From NCBI GenBank assembly GCA_014469095.1, contig GCA_014469095.1_4330.1: a DNA stretch of 45,007 nt. One strand, given 5' to 3'. Both the position numbers and the translations under genes were made by a program. Below the pieces are notes generated by a model. The model was not told where the DNA came from. It was given only the letters and a program-made list of their open reading frames with translations, and made no database searches. This DNA comes from a phage. Positions 4,155 to 39,330 of this stretch are shown piece after piece (position 1 is the first letter of the stretch; each line of letters starts with the position of its first letter).

Positions 4155-4183
4155 ATAGTATCCTATTATGTTGGGGTGTGCAA
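4155..4183 (-). promoter_or_regulatory. Sigma70-like promoter, type A (TTGCAC-N17-TACTAT)
   Basis: Minus strand reads TTGCACACCCCAACATAATAGGATACTATTCAC; heads the leftward small-gene block. Confidence 0.6.
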
Positions 4184-4619: not shown

Positions 4620-4772
4620 ATGGTTACTTTGACAGAAGAACAGTTGAAAGAGTTGCTGATAGAAGCGTGGTTTAACGGGCATAACGAGAGCAGATACTGC
4701 CCTAATAAATACGGCACAGCTACAGTGTTCGCACGGGAAACAATTAAGGAGATTAAAGATGACGCAGAATGA
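4620..4772 (+). CDS. Hypothetical protein, 50 aa
   Basis: ORF track 4587..4772; the TTG at 4587 lies inside the predicted -10, so the ATG at 4620 (SD GAGGG) is preferred. Confidence 0.45.
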   Translation: MVTLTEEQLKELLIEAWFNGHNESRYCPNKYGTATVFARETIKEIKDDAE

Positions 4773-4929
4773 AGTAGCTGAGCGTATCGGGGTTACTCGT
4801 CGCACATTGAATAACTGGTTAAAGAATGGGAAATTCCCGGATTGCTGTATCCGCATTATGGGTCGCCGTCAGCCAGGTACGTTCGACCCGGAGAAAGTGG
4901 AAGCGTGGATTAAGGAGAACGTAAAATGA
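4759..4929 (+). CDS. AlpA/excisionase-like HTH DNA-binding protein, 56 aa
   Basis: Not in track; MTQNEVAERIGVTRRTLNNWLKNGKFP... has the layout of AlpA-type HTH regulators; SD AGGAGA; stop overlaps the next ATG. Confidence 0.5.
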   Translation: MTQNEVAERIGVTRRTLNNWLKNGKFPDCCIRIMGRRQPGTFDPEKVEAWIKENVK

Positions 4930-27559: not shown

Positions 27560-27588
27560 TTGCACACCCCAATATAATAGCGTACTAT
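27560..27588 (+). promoter_or_regulatory. Sigma70-like promoter, type A (TTGCAC-N17-TACTAT) driving the rightward cassette
   Basis: TTGCAC-ACCCCAATATAATAGCG-TACTAT-TCAC. Confidence 0.6.
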
Positions 27589-27630
27589 TCACTTACACCA
27601 ACGATGTTATCTCAAATCAGGAGTTATGTT

Positions 27631-27822
27631 ATGACCGGTATCACTATGTTCTTCTTAATTATTTTTGTAGCCGTTTATTTTATCCCGTTTTTGGTGGCAC
27701 ATATGCGTAACCATAAAGCAAAGCTGGCGATATTCATGGCTAACTTATTTCTCGGGTGGATTCTGTTGCCGTGGGTATTCATTTTAATCTGGGCTTGCAA
27801 CTCGAACGTGAAAGAGAAGTAG
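27631..27822 (+). CDS. Superinfection-immunity-like small membrane protein (T4 Imm-like)
   Basis: ORF track 27604..27822; ATG at 27631 with SD CAGGAG; YFIPFLVAHMRNHKAKLAIFMANLFLGWILLPWVFILIWA matches the recalled Imm-family signature YF-P...R-H-N...NL-LGW...W..LIWA. Confidence 0.6.
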   Translation: MTGITMFFLIIFVAVYFIPFLVAHMRNHKAKLAIFMANLFLGWILLPWVFILIWACNSNVKEK

Positions 27823-27860
27823 GCTACTATAAGACAAATCCTAAACACGAGGAAGTAAGC

Positions 27861-28991
27861 ATGGCCCAGAAGAAAATAACCGACGAGCAATTACAGGAAG
27901 AATTGAACGCCGGGATGAAGAATATCGATATCGCCCGTAAATACGGAATCTCAGACCGCGTTATCCGAATACGTAAAGCTAAGCTGGCTAAGAAAGGCGT
28001 AGGCCACGGGCGGGACGTAAGCCACCTTGTACCAGACGGCTACAAGATTAAAGGCACGTCGTCTCTGGTGGACGAGTTCGGTAACACTAAGTTGCAGTGG
28101 GTTAAGACAGACACCGATGCCGAACGTCAGGTTGAGTTGATGAAAGCCGTAGTCGAAGGCATGAAGTCGGAGATTACTCCCGTTCCGCCAGTTAAGGCCG
28201 CCCGGACTAAACGTGACGACAAGCTGCTTAACCTGTACACCGTGTCTGATTTCCATCTCGGTATGTTAGCCTGGGCTGACGAGAGCGGCGACGACTGGGA
28301 TATGAAAATCGCGGAGGACTTATTCTCTCGTTGGTTTGATGCTGCGTTTCAGAAAGCACCGGATGCAGGTACGGGGGTTATTAATCTTCTTGGCGACTTA
28401 GCTCACTTCGATAGTCTTGACGCCGTTACACCGGCGAGTGGTCATGTCCTTGACGCCGACACGCGTTACCAGAAACTTGTCCGCTACATGATTCGCATGG
28501 TCCGCCGTGTTGTTGATATGGCTCTGGTTAAGCATAAAACTGTTCGCTTGCTTATAGTTCAGGGGAACCACGACGAATCCGGGATGATTTGGTTGGCTGA
28601 GATGTTCAGTACGCTGTACGACAATGAGCCGCGCGTGTTCGTCGATACGTCGCCGGATGTTTACAAGATGGTGCAACACGGCAAAACGACGCTGTTCTTC
28701 CATCACGGGCATAAAGCACGATTCGACGCTATCGAACCGGTTATGATTGCCAAGTTCCGTAAAGCGTTCGGCGAGAGTGTTTACAGCTACGCCCACGTAG
28801 GCCATCTGCACCACCAGAAGATTGTAGAAAGCCGTAACATGATTGTTGAGCAACACCGCACCTTAGCGGCTAAAGACGCCTACGCCTCTCGCGGCGGATG
28901 GATGTCGGGCCGCAGTGCAAATGTAATTACTTATAGCGCCGAATATGGCGAGGTCGCACGTTTAACTATTTCACCGGAGATGCTGGGATGA
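27861..28991 (+). CDS. HTH-fused calcineurin-like metallophosphoesterase (Mre11/SbcD-type motifs)
   Basis: ORF track 27756..28991; ATG at 27861 with SD GAGGAAG; N-terminal HTH-like NIDIARKYGISDRVIRIRKAKL; phosphoesterase motifs VSDFHLG, LLGDLAHFD, LIVQGNHDESG, FHHGH. Confidence 0.65.
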   Translation: MAQKKITDEQLQEELNAGMKNIDIARKYGISDRVIRIRKAKLAKKGVGHGRDVSHLVPDGYKIKGTSSLVDEFGNTKLQWVKTDTDAERQVELMKAVVEGMKSEITPVPPVKAARTKRDDKLLNLYTVSDFHLGMLAWADESGDDWDMKIAEDLFSRWFDAAFQKAPDAGTGVINLLGDLAHFDSLDAVTPASGHVLDADTRYQKLVRYMIRMVRRVVDMALVKHKTVRLLIVQGNHDESGMIWLAEMFSTLYDNEPRVFVDTSPDVYKMVQHGKTTLFFHHGHKARFDAIEPVMIAKFRKAFGESVYSYAHVGHLHHQKIVESRNMIVEQHRTLAAKDAYASRGGWMSGRSANVITYSAEYGEVARLTISPEMLG

Positions 28992-29476
28992 AAGATATTG
29001 TAATTTTCGATTTAGACGGGACATTGGCCGACGGTACCCATCGCTTACACCTGTTACCAAAAGATAACTACGGAGAAACGTGGGCGTGGAAGCCATTTAA
29101 CATGGCCTGCAAAGATGACGCTCCGATATACGACAATATCCATTTGTGTAGCGTACTGTGGCATTCCGGACTTACTATAATTATCCTTACCGGGCGAAGT
29201 GATGACGCTGAGGAGGAGACTCGCGAATGGTTACGAGAGAATAACGTTAGGTTTGACACGCTAATCATGCGCAGCAAACACGACAACAGAAAAGACATCG
29301 TAATTAAAGAAGAGGTGTTGCGTGCTTTCGGACTGGAAAGAATCTTGTGTGCGTTCGACGACTCTCCAGCGGTAATAAAGCATTTCCGTGACCTCGGCAT
29401 AACCGCACACGCAGTTACCGAATACGACTGTAACGGGAACTCTACACACTTAAAACCACACGGGAGCGATAAATAA
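28988..29476 (+). CDS. HAD-superfamily phosphatase resembling the T4 polynucleotide kinase 3-prime phosphatase domain
   Basis: ORF track; IVIFDLDGTLADG (DxDGT), IILTGRSDD and RKDIVIKEE, recalled as close to the T4 Pnk C-terminal domain (VIFDVDGTLA, VVVSGRESG, RKDDVVKEE). Confidence 0.65.
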   Translation: MKDIVIFDLDGTLADGTHRLHLLPKDNYGETWAWKPFNMACKDDAPIYDNIHLCSVLWHSGLTIIILTGRSDDAEEETREWLRENNVRFDTLIMRSKHDNRKDIVIKEEVLRAFGLERILCAFDDSPAVIKHFRDLGITAHAVTEYDCNGNSTHLKPHGSDK

Positions 29477-30030
29477 TGGCTAAGGTAATTATTCTTAATG
29501 GCCCTGCGGGTTGCGGGAAAGACACGCTTGCTATGGCGCTGGTAGAAATGGGCTTTGCGAAAGGAACTACCAGTTTCAAGAATCCAATGTTCAATATTGC
29601 TTTGGCAGCGTTAGGCCAGGATGCTTACCACGAATTTCTCGACGGCTACGACGACCGGGCGCGGAAAGAAAAACCCGAGGGTTTTCTTAATGGGTTGTCC
29701 CGCCGCCGGTTAATGATTGCCATTTCTGAGCAATTCATTAAACCGGTATTCGGCGATGATTATTTCGGTAAGTATCTTGCTGAAAACTTGCCTGACGGCG
29801 ACGAAGTTTTTGTAGTGTCCGATGGTGGATTCGCCAGTGAAGTTGCCCCTATCGTCGCCGCGGGGCATGACGTGCGAATCGTCCGCCTCCATCGTGACGG
29901 CTATACGTTCATCTGCGATAGCCGTGGCTATCTGTACGATGTTAGTGGTGTAAAAGATTACGACACCTACATCATACCGGGTGACGTTAAATCGAACGTT
30001 ATAGACATTGCTTTAAAATTAGGTTTGTAA
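29476..30030 (+). CDS. P-loop kinase, dNMP-kinase-like (T4 gene 1 type); polynucleotide kinase is the alternative
   Basis: ORF track; P-loop GPAGCGKDT (the GKDT variant recalled for phage dNMP kinases), SRRRLMIAI; start overlaps the phosphatase stop by 1 nt. Confidence 0.55.
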   Translation: MAKVIILNGPAGCGKDTLAMALVEMGFAKGTTSFKNPMFNIALAALGQDAYHEFLDGYDDRARKEKPEGFLNGLSRRRLMIAISEQFIKPVFGDDYFGKYLAENLPDGDEVFVVSDGGFASEVAPIVAAGHDVRIVRLHRDGYTFICDSRGYLYDVSGVKDYDTYIIPGDVKSNVIDIALKLGL

Positions 30031-36277: not shown

Positions 36278-36305
36278 TTATTCCAACATGCAAGGCAACT
36301 ATTCC
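36278..36305. repeat. Repeat block TTATTCCAACAT plus CAACTATTC, copy 1
   Basis: Both short motifs recur at 37045-37072, flanking the spanin genes. Confidence 0.5.
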
Positions 36306-36562
36306 AGAATATTCCTCACGTAATCCTGCAACATAAACACTTTCAGCCTCAGTTGCCGTACACATTCAGCGTTCTGAACGTCGATAGCTAAATCTTCGTC
36401 GGCATCGCTACTCGGCGGTGCCAGCTTGCACGGCGGCTGCATCATCGTCGTATCCGGGGATGGAGTTGGCGTTTGCGACGGCGCGGGACTTGAGCTGCAC
36501 GCGCTCAGGGTCAAAAGCGCACACACTGCGACCAGGCGTTTTAATGTACTTAACGACTTCAC
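36299..36562 (-). CDS. Rz1: o-spanin (Rz1-like outer-membrane lipoprotein), overlapping the Rz gene in the +1 frame
   Basis: ORF track; GTG start with SD GAGGTGA; signal peptide ending in lipobox LSAC; Pro-rich mature region; starts inside the Rz gene and extends past it. Confidence 0.65.
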   Translation of the reverse strand: MKSLSTLKRLVAVCALLTLSACSSSPAPSQTPTPSPDTTMMQPPCKLAPPSSDADEDLAIDVQNAECVRQLRLKVFMLQDYVRNILE

Positions 36563-36794
36563 GGGTGATCACCTCTGATTTCGTCTTGCCTTCGTTGTCA
36601 GCGGCTGCGGCCTTTGATTCGTCCTGCTGCTGCCGTTGTGTTTTCTTAGTCATCTCGGCCTGTGCTTTCTGCTGTTGCTGAGAAACGAGATTCGCCCGGC
36701 CTTCGTTCCAGCCGATGCGGTACTGGTAGATGCCGTGTGTGTAAGCCAGGATGATGAAACATGCTCCCGCTACGACAGTTGCTTTAAGATTCAT
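36408..36794 (-). CDS. Rz: i-spanin (Rz-like inner-membrane protein)
   Basis: ORF track; N-terminal TM helix then a Gln/Lys/Ala-rich helical periplasmic region; SD AAGGAG; carries the embedded lipoprotein gene. Confidence 0.65.
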   Translation of the reverse strand: MNLKATVVAGACFIILAYTHGIYQYRIGWNEGRANLVSQQQQKAQAEMTKKTQRQQQDESKAAAADNEGKTKSEVITREVVKYIKTPGRSVCAFDPERVQLKSRAVANANSIPGYDDDAAAVQAGTAE

Positions 36795-37044
36795 GTTTCT
36801 CCTTTCTCGATAAGTAAAGCCCCGCCTTAAAGCGGGGCGCTAGTCCTTATCATTTAAACATAGAAACGGCGTAATCTCAGTAAACCAGTTACTTTTTACA
36901 CAAGCAATAGAGTATGGCCCGTCCGAACGCGTCAGCGTAACTACACTCAGGACTTACGTCCCGCTCCGTTACCTGCCCGCGCCGCGGTCGCTTGTTCATA
37001 CTTCACAAGCTCAGGTGGAGCTTATCATATTTTTAGTGAAAAGT

Positions 37045-37072
37045 CAACTATTCGAATAGTTTATTCCAACAT
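37045..37072. repeat. Perfect 16-bp palindrome AACTATTCGAATAGTT followed by TTATTCCAACAT, copy 2
   Basis: The palindrome carries the CTATT/AATAG half-sites of the promoter core in everted order; lies upstream of the spanin genes and of the 37114 promoter. Confidence 0.5.
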
Positions 37073-37113
37073 TTACAATTGAGCGGAATAACTGGAATAA
37101 GTAAATAAATAGT

Positions 37114-37142
37114 TTGCACACCCCAATATAATAGGGTACTAT
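37114..37142 (+). promoter_or_regulatory. Sigma70-like promoter, type A (TTGCAC-N17-TACTAT)
   Basis: TTGCAC-ACCCCAATATAATAGGG-TACTAT-TCAG, then SD GCAGGAGGTG. Confidence 0.65.
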
Positions 37143-37169
37143 TCAGTTAACTTAAGCAGGAGGTGAAAA

Positions 37170-37373
37170 ATGTATGCAATTTGCGAAGTAGTTCAAGAGT
37201 TCGATGAAGAGTTCGACGGTGACTTGTGCCGTGTTAAAAAGGTTCTGCAGGTTTTCCCTGACGTAAACTCCGCTAACAAGGCATTAGAGCTATTCGAACC
37301 TGGAAGATATGGGGATTATGACACTGTTCTGAGGGTGGTGCATGAACAGAAATTAGGTACAAAATTCCGTTGA
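37170..37373 (+). CDS. Hypothetical acidic protein, 67 aa (single-gene cassette)
   Basis: ORF track; own promoter and terminator, opposite in orientation to the surrounding head genes. Confidence 0.6.
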   Translation: MYAICEVVQEFDEEFDGDLCRVKKVLQVFPDVNSANKALELFEPGRYGDYDTVLRVVHEQKLGTKFR

Positions 37374-37377
37374 AAAC

Positions 37378-37401
37378 TAAGGCCCCGTAATGGGGCCTTT
37401 T
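37378..37401. terminator. Bidirectional intrinsic terminator (AAGGCCCC family)
   Basis: AAGGCCCC-GTAAT-GGGGCCTT then TTAT. Confidence 0.7.
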
Positions 37402-37402
37402 A

Positions 37403-37861
37403 TCAGTCTGGCTTAGTGACCTTCGCTGCTTTACTGACGGCCGCTACACCATCGGCATCGGTAACTTTAACGAAGTATTCACCGACCGCGTTAACCGTCA
37501 GAGACAAAGCCTCTTCGGGCGCGTTTACTACTTCCTTGCCGTCTTTGTACCAGGCCAGTGCATAGGGGGATTTACCCGCCTTAACTTCGACAGTGATAGT
37601 TGCGCTGCCATCTGCCAGTTCAACGTCCTGCGGTTGTACAGAGAAATACACATCGCCTGCGTCAGCCAGATACGGGATTTCATAAAGCATACCCGCCGCT
37701 GGTAGCGCAATGCCAGTCTTGTCTGCAAACGGCATATCGTCTACTGGTGTACCAAGTACACTTTCGTCTTCAATAAACACCACGTTCTCACCAGAGCCAG
37801 ACACGCGGGCGTACTGGACTACGCGACGCGAAGGTACATCAGTTACTTTGAAAAAGCCCAT
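37403..37861 (-). CDS. Ig-like domain structural protein, 152 aa
   Basis: ORF track; YALAWYKDGKEV...GEYFVKV is an Ig-like motif. Confidence 0.5.
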   Translation of the reverse strand: MGFFKVTDVPSRRVVQYARVSGSGENVVFIEDESVLGTPVDDMPFADKTGIALPAAGMLYEIPYLADAGDVYFSVQPQDVELADGSATITVEVKAGKSPYALAWYKDGKEVVNAPEEALSLTVNAVGEYFVKVTDADGVAAVSKAAKVTKPD

Positions 37862-37864
37862 AAA

Positions 37865-38908
37865 CTAAACCTCTTTCAGATAATCAGCAACACGTTTATC
37901 GAGTTCCGCCATCTCTTTAATAGTCAGCTGACGCCCGAAACCATCTACAGATATTACGCGAAACTCTTCCGGCGATATACCGCTGTTACGGAAAATCTTA
38001 CCTCGCACCGGGCCGAGTGCTTCATCCACGAACCATGCCGGTTGTTGTTTAAGGAACTCGTAATAGGTGGTGTCCGCGCTTACCTGAGTACCGCCGTCCG
38101 CGCCCTTAGCCGCTCGTTTTGCGCCTTTATCGAGGAAGTCGAACTCTGAACTGATTACCGGCGCAGTGGTACTTCGACAGTTCGGATGTGCTGGGGGCAT
38201 CGGCCCTTTTCCAATCGCCCACGTCATTCCGTCTCTGGCTCTGCAAATCGTACTGGTACGGCTGTCCAGCGTCGACACCCATTCGTATTTCTCGATGATG
38301 TCGCCGTTCTGCCGGTACGTCTCGTTACGTGCTTCGTTGGATACATGAGACAGCGCGGTGCGTATTACGGTAGCCGCGTTACGTTCTGAGATGTCCGCCA
38401 GCCCACCAGCACCAACAACATTCTTAACAATCTGTCGTGTGGTTTGGCCTTGTACAAAGCCCATCTTAACGCCAGTTACCAGGCGCGCGACCTCCGCTTC
38501 ACCCCAGCCAGACATCAGCTTAGTGAAATCAACAGGCTTGTCACTTAATGATAGCGGCTGAAATTCGGCGGCAGCCCACACCTGCTCGGCGGTAGGCGTA
38601 ACAAATTCTGCGTCTACGTTGGCGGTCAGTGTCTTTACATTCCACTCAGCCTCATACGCCGCCAGCTCCTTGAGGTCTTCTGTCAGCTTTGTTTGCCAGT
38701 CGCCTGTAAGCCCGGTTAGTGCTTCTTCTAGGTCGCGTAACAGTTTATTCAGGCGCGCTGTGCTGCGACCGTCGTCACCGAATAGCAGTACCTGCCGTTT
38801 GATTTCGTCTCGCATTTCCTGAATGAACGGTGCGAGGTCTTTCACTTCACCTGATGCGGTGCGTTGCAGCCATATCTGGTGGCTGATTAGCGATGTAAGT
38901 AAGCTCAT
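37865..38908 (-). CDS. Head morphogenesis protein, MuF / SPP1 gp7-like
   Basis: ORF track 37865..38968; ATG at 38908 with SD AGGAGG; C-terminal AHPNCRST resembles the recalled MuF motif; sits downstream of the portal. Confidence 0.65.
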   Translation of the reverse strand: MSLLTSLISHQIWLQRTASGEVKDLAPFIQEMRDEIKRQVLLFGDDGRSTARLNKLLRDLEEALTGLTGDWQTKLTEDLKELAAYEAEWNVKTLTANVDAEFVTPTAEQVWAAAEFQPLSLSDKPVDFTKLMSGWGEAEVARLVTGVKMGFVQGQTTRQIVKNVVGAGGLADISERNAATVIRTALSHVSNEARNETYRQNGDIIEKYEWVSTLDSRTSTICRARDGMTWAIGKGPMPPAHPNCRSTTAPVISSEFDFLDKGAKRAAKGADGGTQVSADTTYYEFLKQQPAWFVDEALGPVRGKIFRNSGISPEEFRVISVDGFGRQLTIKEMAELDKRVADYLKEV

Positions 38909-38952: not shown

Positions 38953-38981
38953 TTGCAGACACCAACATAATAGGGTACTAT
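38953..38981 (+). promoter_or_regulatory. Sigma70-like promoter, type A (TTGCAG-N17-TACTAT)
   Basis: TTGCAG-ACACCAACATAATAGGG-TACTAT-TCAT. Confidence 0.6.
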
Positions 38982-39016
38982 TCATTGCATCGAAACGAGA
39001 GATAAGGAATTTAGAA

Positions 39017-39298
39017 ATGGCTAAATATTCAAACAGTGATTTATATCTTACATGTGTATGTGTTGATAGCGTTCAGGTAGAGTGTGTCGCTCAGGAGTGG
39101 ACTTCCAGTGAAGAAGATATATTTAAAATAGGGCGCAAGTATTGGCTACACCACGGGTGGTTGACTAGACCTAACGGGGACTCCGATGTGGAACTTTGGT
39201 GGGTAGAGTATCGCGGGCGCTCGTATATCTGTTGGCCCGAAACGAAAAACGGCGCCACCAGTTACACCGCTACCAGCACTGGATTTACATTTGTATAG
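39017..39298 (+). CDS. Hypothetical Cys/Trp-rich protein, 94 aa (single-gene cassette)
   Basis: ORF track 38909..39298; ATG at 39017 with SD AAGGAA; own promoter and terminator between the portal and head-morphogenesis genes. Confidence 0.6.
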   Translation: MAKYSNSDLYLTCVCVDSVQVECVAQEWTSSEEDIFKIGRKYWLHHGWLTRPNGDSDVELWWVEYRGRSYICWPETKNGATSYTATSTGFTFV

Positions 39299-39303
39299 AT
39301 AAA

Positions 39304-39330
39304 AAGGCCCCTTATGGGGCCTTAATTTTA
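39304..39330. terminator. Bidirectional intrinsic terminator (AAGGCCCC family)
   Basis: AAGGCCCC-TTAT-GGGGCCTT then AATTTTA. Confidence 0.75.

What the first reader, a model, noticed from the sequence alone, without database searches (positions are those of the whole stretch)
37114..37401. Single-gene cassette (67-aa acidic protein) in the head module
A rightward gene with a type A promoter, strong SD and a palindromic terminator is wedged between the leftward head genes and the spanin genes. The protein (MYAICEVVQEFDEEFDGDLCRVKKVLQVFPDVNSANKALELFEPGRYGDYDTVLRVVHEQKLGTKFR) matches no family I recognise. Small acidic proteins in early-promoter cassettes are typical of anti-defence or exclusion factors.
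Basis: inference. Interest (0 to 1): 0.6.

Follow-up and report, generated by a model that had tools for sequence, protein, structure and literature searches.

The report
Swappable accessory-gene cassette in phage head genes
A small gene with its own promoter and terminator sits backwards among the head genes of a Kagunavirus phage in one of two hot-swap slots, and it encodes a well-folded 67-residue protein of unknown function: an ordinary kind of phage add-on gene and a reasonable anti-defence candidate, but nothing here shows what it does.

Summary
The window is a Kagunavirus (Guernseyvirinae) genome. Positions 37114-37403 form a complete rightward transcription unit: promoter-like motif, AGGAGGT Shine-Dalgarno, 67-codon ORF and hairpin terminator. 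It lies between the leftward Hoc-like head gene and the Rz/Rz1-scaffold-capsid block.

The gene is real. dN/dS is 0.17-0.36, AlphaFold2 pLDDT is 90.5, and about 19 homologue clusters exist, all from lytic enterobacterial phage genomes or phage-like contigs.

The "type A promoter" is a 29-nt motif present four times in the window (0 expected). It also heads a leftward array of small ORFs (presumed early) and a T4 Imm-like superinfection-immunity operon.

This site and a second one (38953-39323) are hypervariable cargo slots. In related phages the promoter is near-identical and the terminator stem is largely shared. These flanks enclose at least 10 different cargo genes per slot, or nothing. The same cassettes occur in either slot.

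This is a classical moron. The protein's function is unknown: no Pfam, NCBIfam or PADLOC hit, and no significant PDB fold match. A role in phage-host or phage-phage conflict is plausible but untested. Broad anti-restriction is unlikely, because all seven BASEL carriers remain highly restriction-sensitive. A membrane-type exclusion protein is also unlikely.

The parts
37114..37145 (+). 'Type A' promoter motif of the cassette (-35 TTGCAC 37114-19, 17-nt conserved spacer, -10 TACTAT 37137-42, then TCA)
   Evidence: Four copies in the window against 0 expected. 66 exact matches on about 30 Guernseyvirinae contigs in IMG/VR, each with an ATG-initiated ORF 15-91 nt downstream wherever enough sequence was held. 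Promoter activity itself is inferred.
37158..37164 (+). Shine-Dalgarno AGGAGGT, 5 nt upstream of the ATG
   Evidence: Read directly from the sequence.
37170..37373 (+). CDS for the 67-aa soluble protein (PHROG 27256, function unknown)
   Evidence: ORF. Homologues of conserved length. dN/dS 0.17-0.36. AF2 pLDDT 90.5 with a beta-hairpin, helix, short helix, strand fold.
37379..37403 (.). Bidirectional hairpin terminator AAGGCCCC-GTAAT-GGGGCCTT between the cassette ORF and the convergent Hoc-like gene
   Evidence: Sequence. The same stem follows most cassettes with other cargo. A hairpin is also present in empty slots: the same stem in T102 and the variant AGCCCC/GGGGCT in K1ind1. It is therefore backbone sequence.
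36795..37100 (-). Conserved non-coding leader upstream of Rz, forming the left flank of the slot. It contains the inverted repeat TTATTCC-N17-GGAATAA (37061-37091), promoter-like TTGACT-17-(TG-n-)TAAGCT (37047-37019), and a GC hairpin at 36838-36819 just before the Rz SD.
   Evidence: 93-100% identical to Jerseyvirus VSt10, while the flanking genes are 55-95% identical per 60-nt window. About 180 records are at least 94% identical. The features are kept in the diverged T102 version. The hairpin was scored as a terminator.
38953..39323 (+). Second cargo slot (between the head-morphogenesis and portal genes): type A promoter 38953-38981, 93-aa ORF 39017-39298, terminator AAGGCCCC-TTAT-GGGGCCTT 39304-39323
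   Evidence: The ORF has no hit in Pfam, PHROG, PADLOC or NCBIfam.
27560..27588 (+). Type A promoter copy heading the Imm-like superinfection-immunity gene (27604-27822) and the downstream phosphoesterase/kinase cluster
   Evidence: PF14373 E=1.8e-13. Annotation of the 96%-identical relative.
4155..4183 (-). Type A promoter copy heading the leftward operon of small ORFs (presumed early genes)

Best explanation
The feature is a moron: an independently transcribed, horizontally exchanged accessory gene. It occupies one of two dedicated cargo slots in the otherwise leftward head-gene module of Guernseyvirinae phages.

Shown:
- The unit runs from a 29-31-nt promoter motif to a GC hairpin terminator.
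- The promoter motif is near-identical across related phages and the terminator stem is largely shared. The sequence between them is replaced by unrelated genes or is absent.
- Identical cassettes occur in either slot. Their homology starts 5-14 nt before the promoter motif and, in three of four pairs, ends at the terminator.

Inferred:
- Cassettes are swapped by recombination within these short shared flanks during co-infection.
- Host sigma-70 RNA polymerase transcribes the cassette from the start of infection, together with the small-ORF operon and the Imm-like immunity operon that carry the same promoter.

The product is a compact, soluble, mildly acidic beta-beta-alpha-beta domain. It is under purifying selection and was found only in lytic phages of Enterobacteriaceae.

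The mechanism I consider most likely, which is inference only, is that it acts alone in the cytoplasm as a stoichiometric binder and inhibitor of one host protein. The target would be a specific immunity component or nuclease, not restriction enzymes in general. This would give a conditional advantage on some hosts.
For: - Gene reality.
- Promoter family.
- Four conserved promoter contexts and cargo diversity (4 of 15 slot-A sites hold the 67-aa gene and the remainder at least 9 other cargo types; slot B has 10 cargo types in 10 sites; four cargo families occur in both slots).
- Cassette-precise homology between the slots.
- Shared terminator stem.
- Empty sites.
- Homology breakpoints at the promoter or RBS in 184 phage records, of which only 20 carry this gene.
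- Alternative cargo annotated as clamp-like or methyltransferase.
- The same gene family in slot B of Jerseyvirus VSt10 and between the MuF-like and portal genes of Klebsiella phage Geezett.
- The family in small-ORF or replication operons of other phages.
- Low GC, 43% against 51%.
- Shared promoter with PF14373 Imm.
- Absence from 185,579 species genomes (one dubious archaeal match) and from 5,426 complete E. coli genomes, so not prophage-borne.
- No conserved neighbour gene, so it probably acts alone.
Against: - All seven BASEL carriers stay highly RM-sensitive and variably Old-sensitive.
- Early timing is unproven. The only Kagunavirus time course classed the Imm gene, which has the same promoter type, as late. 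That experiment peaked at 8.9% phage reads and sampled over 120 min.
- In some phages the homologue sits next to DNA polymerase or primase. This fits a DNA-metabolism or takeover role equally well.
Confidence: 0.5

Rival explanations
1. It is a host-takeover or DNA-metabolism accessory factor. The protein would bind a housekeeping host component, for example a nuclease such as RecBCD, a replication or transcription factor, or a protease adaptor, to favour phage replication. It would not target a dedicated immune system.
For: - Homologues lie immediately after DNA polymerase A and before a VRR-NUC-like gene (identified by my reading of its sequence) and an SNF2 helicase in two contigs.
- A homologue lies just upstream of the primase in Klebsiella phage vB_Kpn2-P2.
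- Other cargo of the same slots includes a beta-clamp-like protein and a DNA methyltransferase.
- The best, though non-significant, fold match is the ClpS adaptor.
Against: - The gene is absent from most close relatives, which grow on similar hosts. It therefore cannot serve a general need.
- It has no conserved partner gene.
Confidence: 0.25
2. It is a phage-versus-phage competition factor. It would act inside the infected cell against a co-infecting or superinfecting phage or satellite, as intracellular exclusion.
For: - It shares its promoter type with a T4 Imm-like superinfection-immunity gene.
- It occupies hypervariable slots.
- The family is restricted to lytic phage genomes.
Against: Well-studied exclusion proteins such as Imm, Sp, Cor and Llp (from general knowledge) act at the envelope. 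This protein has no membrane or export signal. No target is suggested by any data.
Confidence: 0.12
3. It is a passenger with little or no function. What matters to the phage would be the slot's promoter and terminator, for instance to insulate or attenuate leftward late transcription, and the ORF would be evolutionary filler.
For: Empty slots keep a terminator hairpin, and one keeps a promoter remnant. Cargo is highly interchangeable.
Against: - dN/dS is 0.17-0.36, with saturated dS between distant members.
- Length and motifs are conserved (D16, V22, A35 and the C-terminal FR are invariant).
- The fold is confident.
- The family persists in at least five phage lineages in different genomic contexts.
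Confidence: 0.06
4. It is a head-assembly or virion accessory protein, as its position in the head module might suggest.
For: The only support is its location between head genes.
Against: - It is on the opposite strand to all structural genes and has its own promoter.
- It is absent or replaced in relatives with identical head genes.
- Homologues sit in replication or small-ORF regions elsewhere.
- No structural-protein family or fold match was found.
Confidence: 0.03

Closest known systems
Morons, as defined for HK97/HK022 and other lambdoid phages (Juhala et al. 2000; Hendrix et al. 2000; cited from my own knowledge)
   Same: It is an extra gene with its own promoter and terminator inserted between two genes of a conserved module. 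It is present in some relatives and absent in others. Its base composition differs from its surroundings. All of these were tested here and met.
   Different: - The classical morons are in temperate phages and are expressed from the prophage. This one is in a lytic phage, and nothing like it was found in bacterial genomes.
- The promoter motif is near-identical, and the terminator stem largely shared, across many different cargos and between two slots. The units therefore behave as interchangeable cassettes and not as one-off insertions.
Small phage anti-defence proteins (anti-CRISPRs, Ocr/ArdA-type DNA mimics, T7 gp5.9 and similar)
   Same: It is small, soluble, mildly acidic, single-domain, accessory and patchily distributed. 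It lies in a variable locus with other accessory genes.
   Different: - Net charge is only -4.4, far from a DNA mimic.
- Carriers are not RM-resistant.
- No activity data exist.
T4 Imm-type superinfection immunity (Pfam PF14373), present in the same genome at 27604-27822
   Same: It is driven by the same 29-nt promoter motif and so is probably co-regulated.
   Different: Imm is a small membrane protein. The 67-aa protein has no hydrophobic segment and no sequence relation to it.
PHROG 27256 and uncharacterised phage proteins (Salmonella virus VSt10 A0A385EGZ4; Enterobacter phage EcP1 E9NID7)
   Same: These are true homologues with the same fold: PHROG E=6e-5, and BFVD TM-scores of 0.95 and 0.81.
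   Different: None has a known function, so membership adds no mechanism.

Membership tests
Moron (independent accessory transcription unit in a phage module) | Own promoter immediately upstream of the gene | tested here: met
   A 29-nt motif with TTGCAC-17-TACTAT lies 27 nt before the ATG. It recurs upstream of ORFs at 4 window sites and 66 IMG/VR sites. Promoter activity was not measured.
Moron (independent accessory transcription unit in a phage module) | Own terminator immediately downstream | tested here: met
   An 8-bp GC-rich stem, 5-nt loop and T-rich tail lie at 37379-37403. The same stem follows most other cassettes. Caveat: a hairpin is also present in empty slots. It is therefore shared with the backbone and is bidirectional.
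Moron (independent accessory transcription unit in a phage module) | Present or absent (or replaced) between otherwise collinear relatives | tested here: met
   20 of 184 records with the conserved left flank carry this gene. Others carry a clamp-like gene, a methyltransferase, other cargo, or nothing.
Moron (independent accessory transcription unit in a phage module) | Base composition distinct from the flanking genes | tested here: met
   The cassette is 42.7% GC (GC3 43%). The genome is 50.6% and the flanking head genes are 52-57% (MCP GC3 69%).
Moron (independent accessory transcription unit in a phage module) | Expression from a repressed prophage (a feature of the original examples) | tested here: not met
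   The phage belongs to a lytic group. The cassette is absent from 5,426 complete E. coli genomes and from 185,579 species genomes, apart from one dubious archaeal match.
Known anti-defence proteins (Acr, Ocr/Ard, other solved ADPs) | Sequence or fold homology to a characterised member | tested here: not met
   [not shown]
Known anti-defence proteins (Acr, Ocr/Ard, other solved ADPs) | Carrier phages escape a defence that non-carriers do not | tested here: inconclusive
   Bas70-76 all carry the gene. They are reported as highly RM-sensitive and variably Old-sensitive (PMC11990801). This argues against broad anti-RM activity. That panel has no non-carrier comparator and covers few systems.
Known anti-defence proteins (Acr, Ocr/Ard, other solved ADPs) | Direct inhibition of a defence system | not testable with these tools
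   This needs deletion or complementation and plating assays.
Envelope-acting superinfection-exclusion proteins (Imm, Sp, Cor, Llp, Sie) | Signal peptide, lipobox or transmembrane segment | tested here: not met
   The 67-aa sequence has no hydrophobic run and GRAVY is -0.35. The predicted fold is a globular beta-beta-alpha-beta domain.
ClpS-like adaptor fold | Significant structural superposition on ClpS | tested here: not met
   [not shown]
PHROG 27256 | Profile match over the full length | tested here: met
   E=6.1e-5, residues 2-67 against profile positions 4-65 of 65. The family has no assigned function.

The most novel reading that the evidence does not exclude
The 67-aa family would be a new single-domain inhibitor, with a fold not represented among solved structures, of a specific enterobacterial immunity or nuclease function. 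The two promoter/terminator-delimited slots of Guernseyvirinae would form a naturally modular 'cassette exchange' locus. Its dozens of unknown cargos would be largely counter-defence or competition genes. In effect this would be an anti-defence island in a small lytic phage that could be mined and engineered systematically.
Probability: 0.3. Interest if true: 0.65.

Novelty: new member of a known kind. Interest (0 to 1): 0.4.

Why it matters
The gene itself is an uncharacterised small phage protein, one of very many. Three things make the locus useful.

- **Defined slots.** Guernseyvirinae carry two precisely delimited plug-in sites in their head module. Each has a near-identical promoter and a largely shared terminator stem, and natural cargo turns over freely. 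This gives a short, well-defined list of candidate conflict genes, about 20 families in the small sample examined. It also marks natural, tolerated insertion sites for engineering these 41-45 kb phages, which are already used for synthetic-biology and therapy work.
- **Tractable carriers.** The 67-aa family is present in all seven BASEL Kagunavirus isolates. Deletion and plating tests on standard E. coli K-12 strains are therefore straightforward.
- **Possible new fold.** If the protein proves to be an inhibitor, its fold would be new among solved structures.

Tried and rejected
**Searches that found nothing**
- Pfam, NCBIfam and PADLOC scans of the protein gave nothing. A PDB sequence-profile search gave only noise.
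- A profile search of 1.84 billion cluster representatives found only about 19 short phage-type relatives. It also returned three repeat-protein false positives (P0028, P0036, P0038), which I discarded.
With the narrower alignment it gave one dubious archaeal hit, 37% over 47 residues, which I discounted. There was no match in complete E. coli genomes.
- The downstream neighbours in Geezett, vB_Kpn2-P2, L076/L077, Shemara and VSt10 are unrelated to each other and to the clamp-like cargo.

**Literature**
- The only temporal transcriptome of a Kagunavirus (PMC12645636) has too little phage signal and too coarse a design to time the cassette. Its phage also lacks this gene.
- The papers I searched describe neither the slots nor the promoter motif.

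**Other checks**
- Rfam found nothing credible in 36300-37900.

**Ideas considered and set aside**
- *DNA mimic:* the charge is too low.
- *Structural protein:* wrong strand, and the gene is dispensable.
- *The 29-mer as a recombination site rather than a promoter:* it also heads two conserved, non-variable operons at a fixed distance from their start codons.

Full report
**What the window is.** Megablast places the window in the genus Kagunavirus (Guernseyvirinae). The closest record is Escherichia phage vB_EcoS-22664BS2, 96% identical over 20 kb. The region around the finding is collinear with annotated relatives. Reading leftward, the order is terminase, portal, head-morphogenesis protein, Hoc-like decoration protein, then the finding, then Rz/Rz1 spanins, scaffold and major capsid.

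**Checking the observation.**
- The ORF is 37170..37373 on the + strand and translates to the quoted 67 residues.
- AGGAGGT lies at 37158-37164, 5 nt before the ATG.
- The hairpin AAGGCCCC-GTAAT-GGGGCCTT (37379-37399) with a T-rich tail fills the 29-nt gap to the stop codon of the convergent Hoc-like gene at 37403. On the opposite strand it is followed by AGTTTTCA, so it can serve both directions.
- The 'type A promoter' is the 29-mer TTGCACACCCCAATATAATAGGGTACTAT at 37114-37142. It occurs four times in the window with at most 3 mismatches: 4183-4155 (-), 27560 (+), 37114 (+) and 38953 (+). The expectation from shuffles is 0.00.
- It reads as TTGCAC, a 17-nt spacer and TACTAT. As a generic sigma-70 match this is mediocre and the consensus scan did not report it. 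The conservation of the whole 29-31 nt is what stands out.
- The protein has pI 4.8 and net charge -4.4. It is acidic, but not strikingly so.

**Is it a gene?**
- The word-indexed search found 18 homologues at 62-93% identity, all 67-68 aa apart from one 53-aa fragment.
- An exhaustive HMM search of 1.84 billion cluster representatives found 22 hits. About 19 are genuine relatives of 51-130 aa. The other three are repeat proteins that I discarded.
- D16, V22, A35 and the C-terminal F66-R67 are invariant across the family.
- Codon-level comparison gives dN/dS of 0.33-0.36 between the window and Bas70-type alleles and 0.17 between two close alleles. Synonymous sites are saturated for the distant members.
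- AlphaFold2 on the 18-sequence alignment gives mean pLDDT 90.5. The fold is a long beta-hairpin (2-12, 17-29), a helix (32-41), a short helix and a third strand (53-58).
- Independent BFVD models of homologues superpose at TM 0.81-0.95.

This is a real, folded protein under purifying selection.

**What the protein resembles.** It resembles nothing characterised.
- Pfam, NCBIfam and PADLOC give no hit. PHROG 27256 matches but has no assigned function.
- The PDB sequence-profile search gives only noise.
- The best Foldseek E-value against 350,542 PDB chains is 0.6.
- The protein has no hydrophobic segment or signal peptide.

**The cassette is one of a set.** I scanned IMG/VR for the promoter motif, allowing only the variants seen in the window. 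This returned 66 matches on about 30 contigs of roughly 41-45 kb. In every case with enough sequence, an ATG-initiated ORF of at least 30 codons starts 15-91 nt downstream. Upstream context sorts the matches, together with the four window copies, into four sites.

| Site | Location | What follows the promoter |
|---|---|---|
| 1 | Window 4183 (-) | Leftward small-ORF operon |
| 2 | Window 27560 (+) | Operon beginning with a membrane protein that matches Pfam PF14373, 'Superinfection immunity protein' (E=1.8e-13, above threshold). Next come a weakly matching metallophosphoesterase and a polynucleotide kinase/phosphatase as annotated in the relative |
| 3 | Slot A, the finding | 15 occurrences: the 67-aa gene four times, the remainder at least nine other cargo types |
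| 4 | Slot B, between head-morphogenesis and portal genes (window 38953-39323, a 93-aa ORF with no known family) | 10 occurrences with 10 different cargo types |

Four cargo families occur in both slots. They are a 57-aa, a 61-aa and a 94-aa protein, and a 173-aa beta-clamp-like protein.

Pairwise comparison of these A/B pairs shows 88-91% identity. The homology begins 5-14 nt upstream of the promoter motif. In three of four pairs it stops at the terminator. The fourth extends further and probably holds more than one gene.

Most cassettes end in the same stem, AAGGCCCC...GGGGCCTT, with different loops.

**Empty and occupied states.**
- Phage K1ind1 has an empty slot A. The conserved left flank ends at the equivalent of window 37100 and is followed within 15 nt by a hairpin (AGCCCC/GGGGCT) and the Hoc-like gene stop.
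- Jerseyvirus T102 is likewise empty but keeps the AAGGCCCC/GGGGCCTT hairpin.
- Bas70 has an empty slot B that retains a -10 remnant next to a hairpin.
- Across the phage database, 184 records share the left flank but only 20 carry this gene. Homology to the window breaks off at query positions 301, 346-350, 365-366 or 373-374. These correspond to just before the promoter, just after it, at the Shine-Dalgarno, and at the ATG.
- Cargo annotated in the others includes 'DNA polymerase III beta subunit / possible moron', adenine methyltransferase and 'RusA-like'. The RusA-like cargo probably belongs to the clamp-like family by its PHROG match.
- The cassette is 42.7% GC against 50.6% for the genome and 52-57% for the neighbouring head genes.

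This meets the classical definition of a moron on every testable point except prophage expression. In addition, the promoter motif is near-identical and the terminator stem largely shared across cargos and between two sites. Recombination within those flanks is therefore the obvious exchange mechanism, but this is inferred and not shown.

**Where else the 67-aa family lives.**
- In Jerseyvirus VSt10 it occupies slot B.
- In Klebsiella phage Geezett (Jedunavirus) it lies between a Mu-F-like head gene and the portal gene, again on the opposite strand.
- In Cornellvirus Shemara it is the first gene of a long array of small ORFs after the endolysin.
- In Klebsiella phage vB_Kpn2-P2 it lies between an annotated RNA ligase and the primase region.
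- In two metagenomic phage contigs it directly follows DNA polymerase A.
- Its downstream neighbours are unrelated to one another, so it probably acts alone.
- It is absent from one-genome-per-species bacterial and archaeal collections apart from one dubious hit. It is also absent from all complete E. coli genomes.

**What it probably does.** The evidence supports 'dispensable, mobile, cytoplasmic, stand-alone small protein co-regulated with an immunity gene'. That is the profile of conflict genes, but the evidence goes no further.

Two constraints narrow the options:
- All seven BASEL Kagunavirus isolates carry the gene. They are nevertheless described as highly sensitive to restriction-modification systems and variably sensitive to Old (PMC11990801). 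It is therefore not a broad anti-restriction factor.
- The lack of any membrane feature argues against an envelope-type exclusion protein.

My best guess is a stoichiometric inhibitor of one specific host immunity or nuclease function. For that guess alone I would put the probability at about 0.35-0.4. A housekeeping-target takeover role is the main rival (about 0.25), and the placement of homologues next to replication genes favours it.

'Early' expression is inferred from the host-type promoter and from the company it keeps. The single published time course for the genus peaked at 8.9% phage reads and sampled over 120 min. It classed the Imm gene as late, and I consider it uninformative.

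**Comparison with what is known, and novelty.** The cassette is a new member of a known kind, a moron, carrying an uncharacterised protein family. The two-slot arrangement with interchangeable cassettes is a tidy variant that I did not find described in the papers I could search. That library is incomplete.

**Adjacent feature noticed: the leader upstream of Rz.** The 300 nt between the cassette and Rz (36795-37100) are 93-100% identical between this Kagunavirus and Jerseyvirus VSt10. The flanking genes are 55-95% identical per 60-nt window. About 180 records are at least 94% identical over the element. Roughly 30 other Jerseyviruses carry only a diverged version.

The diverged T102 version keeps several features:
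- an inverted repeat, TTATTCC-N17-GGAATAA;
- a promoter-like T(T/A)GACT-17-TA(A/C)GCT on the leftward strand;
- several GC-rich blocks;
- a hairpin just before the Rz ribosome-binding site, with a compensatory C-G to G-C change.

A five-sequence consensus fold shows 8 pairs with double changes. That sample contains only two sequence types, so it is weak evidence.

The 36-codon ORF that several records annotate here (36889-36999, -) has no start codon in T102, so it is probably not coding.

I read this region as the control region and leader of the leftward Rz-scaffold-capsid operon. Its architecture recalls a late promoter with a terminated leader. Its near-identity across genera may reflect recent recombination rather than constraint. 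Homing endonucleases may contribute: VSt10's slot A cargo looks HNH-like by my reading of its sequence, and fEg-Eco19 has an annotated HNH gene next door. This part is speculative.

Noticed in passing
window 38953-39323: A second rightward single-gene cassette lies between the head-morphogenesis and portal genes. It has the same promoter motif (3 mismatches) and the same terminator stem. It encodes a 93-aa Trp/Cys-rich protein with no hit in Pfam, PHROG, PADLOC or NCBIfam. The slot is empty in Bas70, where a -10 remnant and a hairpin remain.
   Followed up: partly
window 36795-37100 (- strand): This 300-nt non-coding leader upstream of Rz is 93-100% identical across Kagunavirus and many Jerseyvirus genomes whose flanking genes are only 55-95% identical. 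It contains the inverted repeat TTATTCC-N17-GGAATAA, a leftward promoter-like TTGACT-17-TAAGCT, a GC-rich structured segment, and a hairpin (36838-36819) directly before the Rz SD. The diverged T102 version keeps these features with at least one compensatory stem change. It is possibly a late-operon control region or leader RNA. There is no Rfam match.
   Followed up: partly
window 36889-36999 (- strand): Several GenBank records annotate a 36-aa 'hypothetical protein' inside that leader. The diverged T102 leader has no start codon at the corresponding position, so the ORF is probably not a gene.
   Followed up: partly
window 37120-37137 and the three other promoter copies: The spacer of the type A promoter is conserved as strongly as the hexamers and is an imperfect palindrome (ACCCCAATA|TAATAGGGT, 7 of 9 pairs). 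It also contains a perfect TATAAT at 37127-37132. This may be an operator. An early-region HTH protein is encoded at 4759-4929 (PF12728, E=3.5e-7).
   Followed up: partly
window 27560-30030: A third rightward island sits between leftward tail and head-tail genes under the same promoter. It holds a T4 Imm-like superinfection-immunity protein (PF14373), a weakly matching metallophosphoesterase, a protein annotated in the closest relative as 3'-phosphatase/5'-polynucleotide kinase, and a 184-aa protein with a weak P-loop match. It may be an RNA- or DNA-end repair module. In some relatives a 108-aa secreted-looking protein precedes Imm.
   Followed up: partly
L003 1826-2365 (Salmonella virus VSt10 slot A); L002 3145-3651 (fEg-Eco19): VSt10's slot A cargo looks like an HNH endonuclease by its sequence motifs. 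fEg-Eco19 has an annotated HNH homing endonuclease inserted in the Rz/Rz1 region next to the slot. Homing-associated co-conversion could explain why the adjacent leader is nearly identical across genera.
   Followed up: no
L049 / L027 and fEg-Eco19_23c (L002 4370-4891): A 173-aa cargo found in either slot is annotated as 'DNA polymerase III beta subunit' or 'RusA-like'. It matches PHROG 3007 and, over part of its length, a processivity-factor PHROG, but no Pfam family. A single-domain clamp-like protein carried as a moron is an unusual accessory gene.
   Followed up: no
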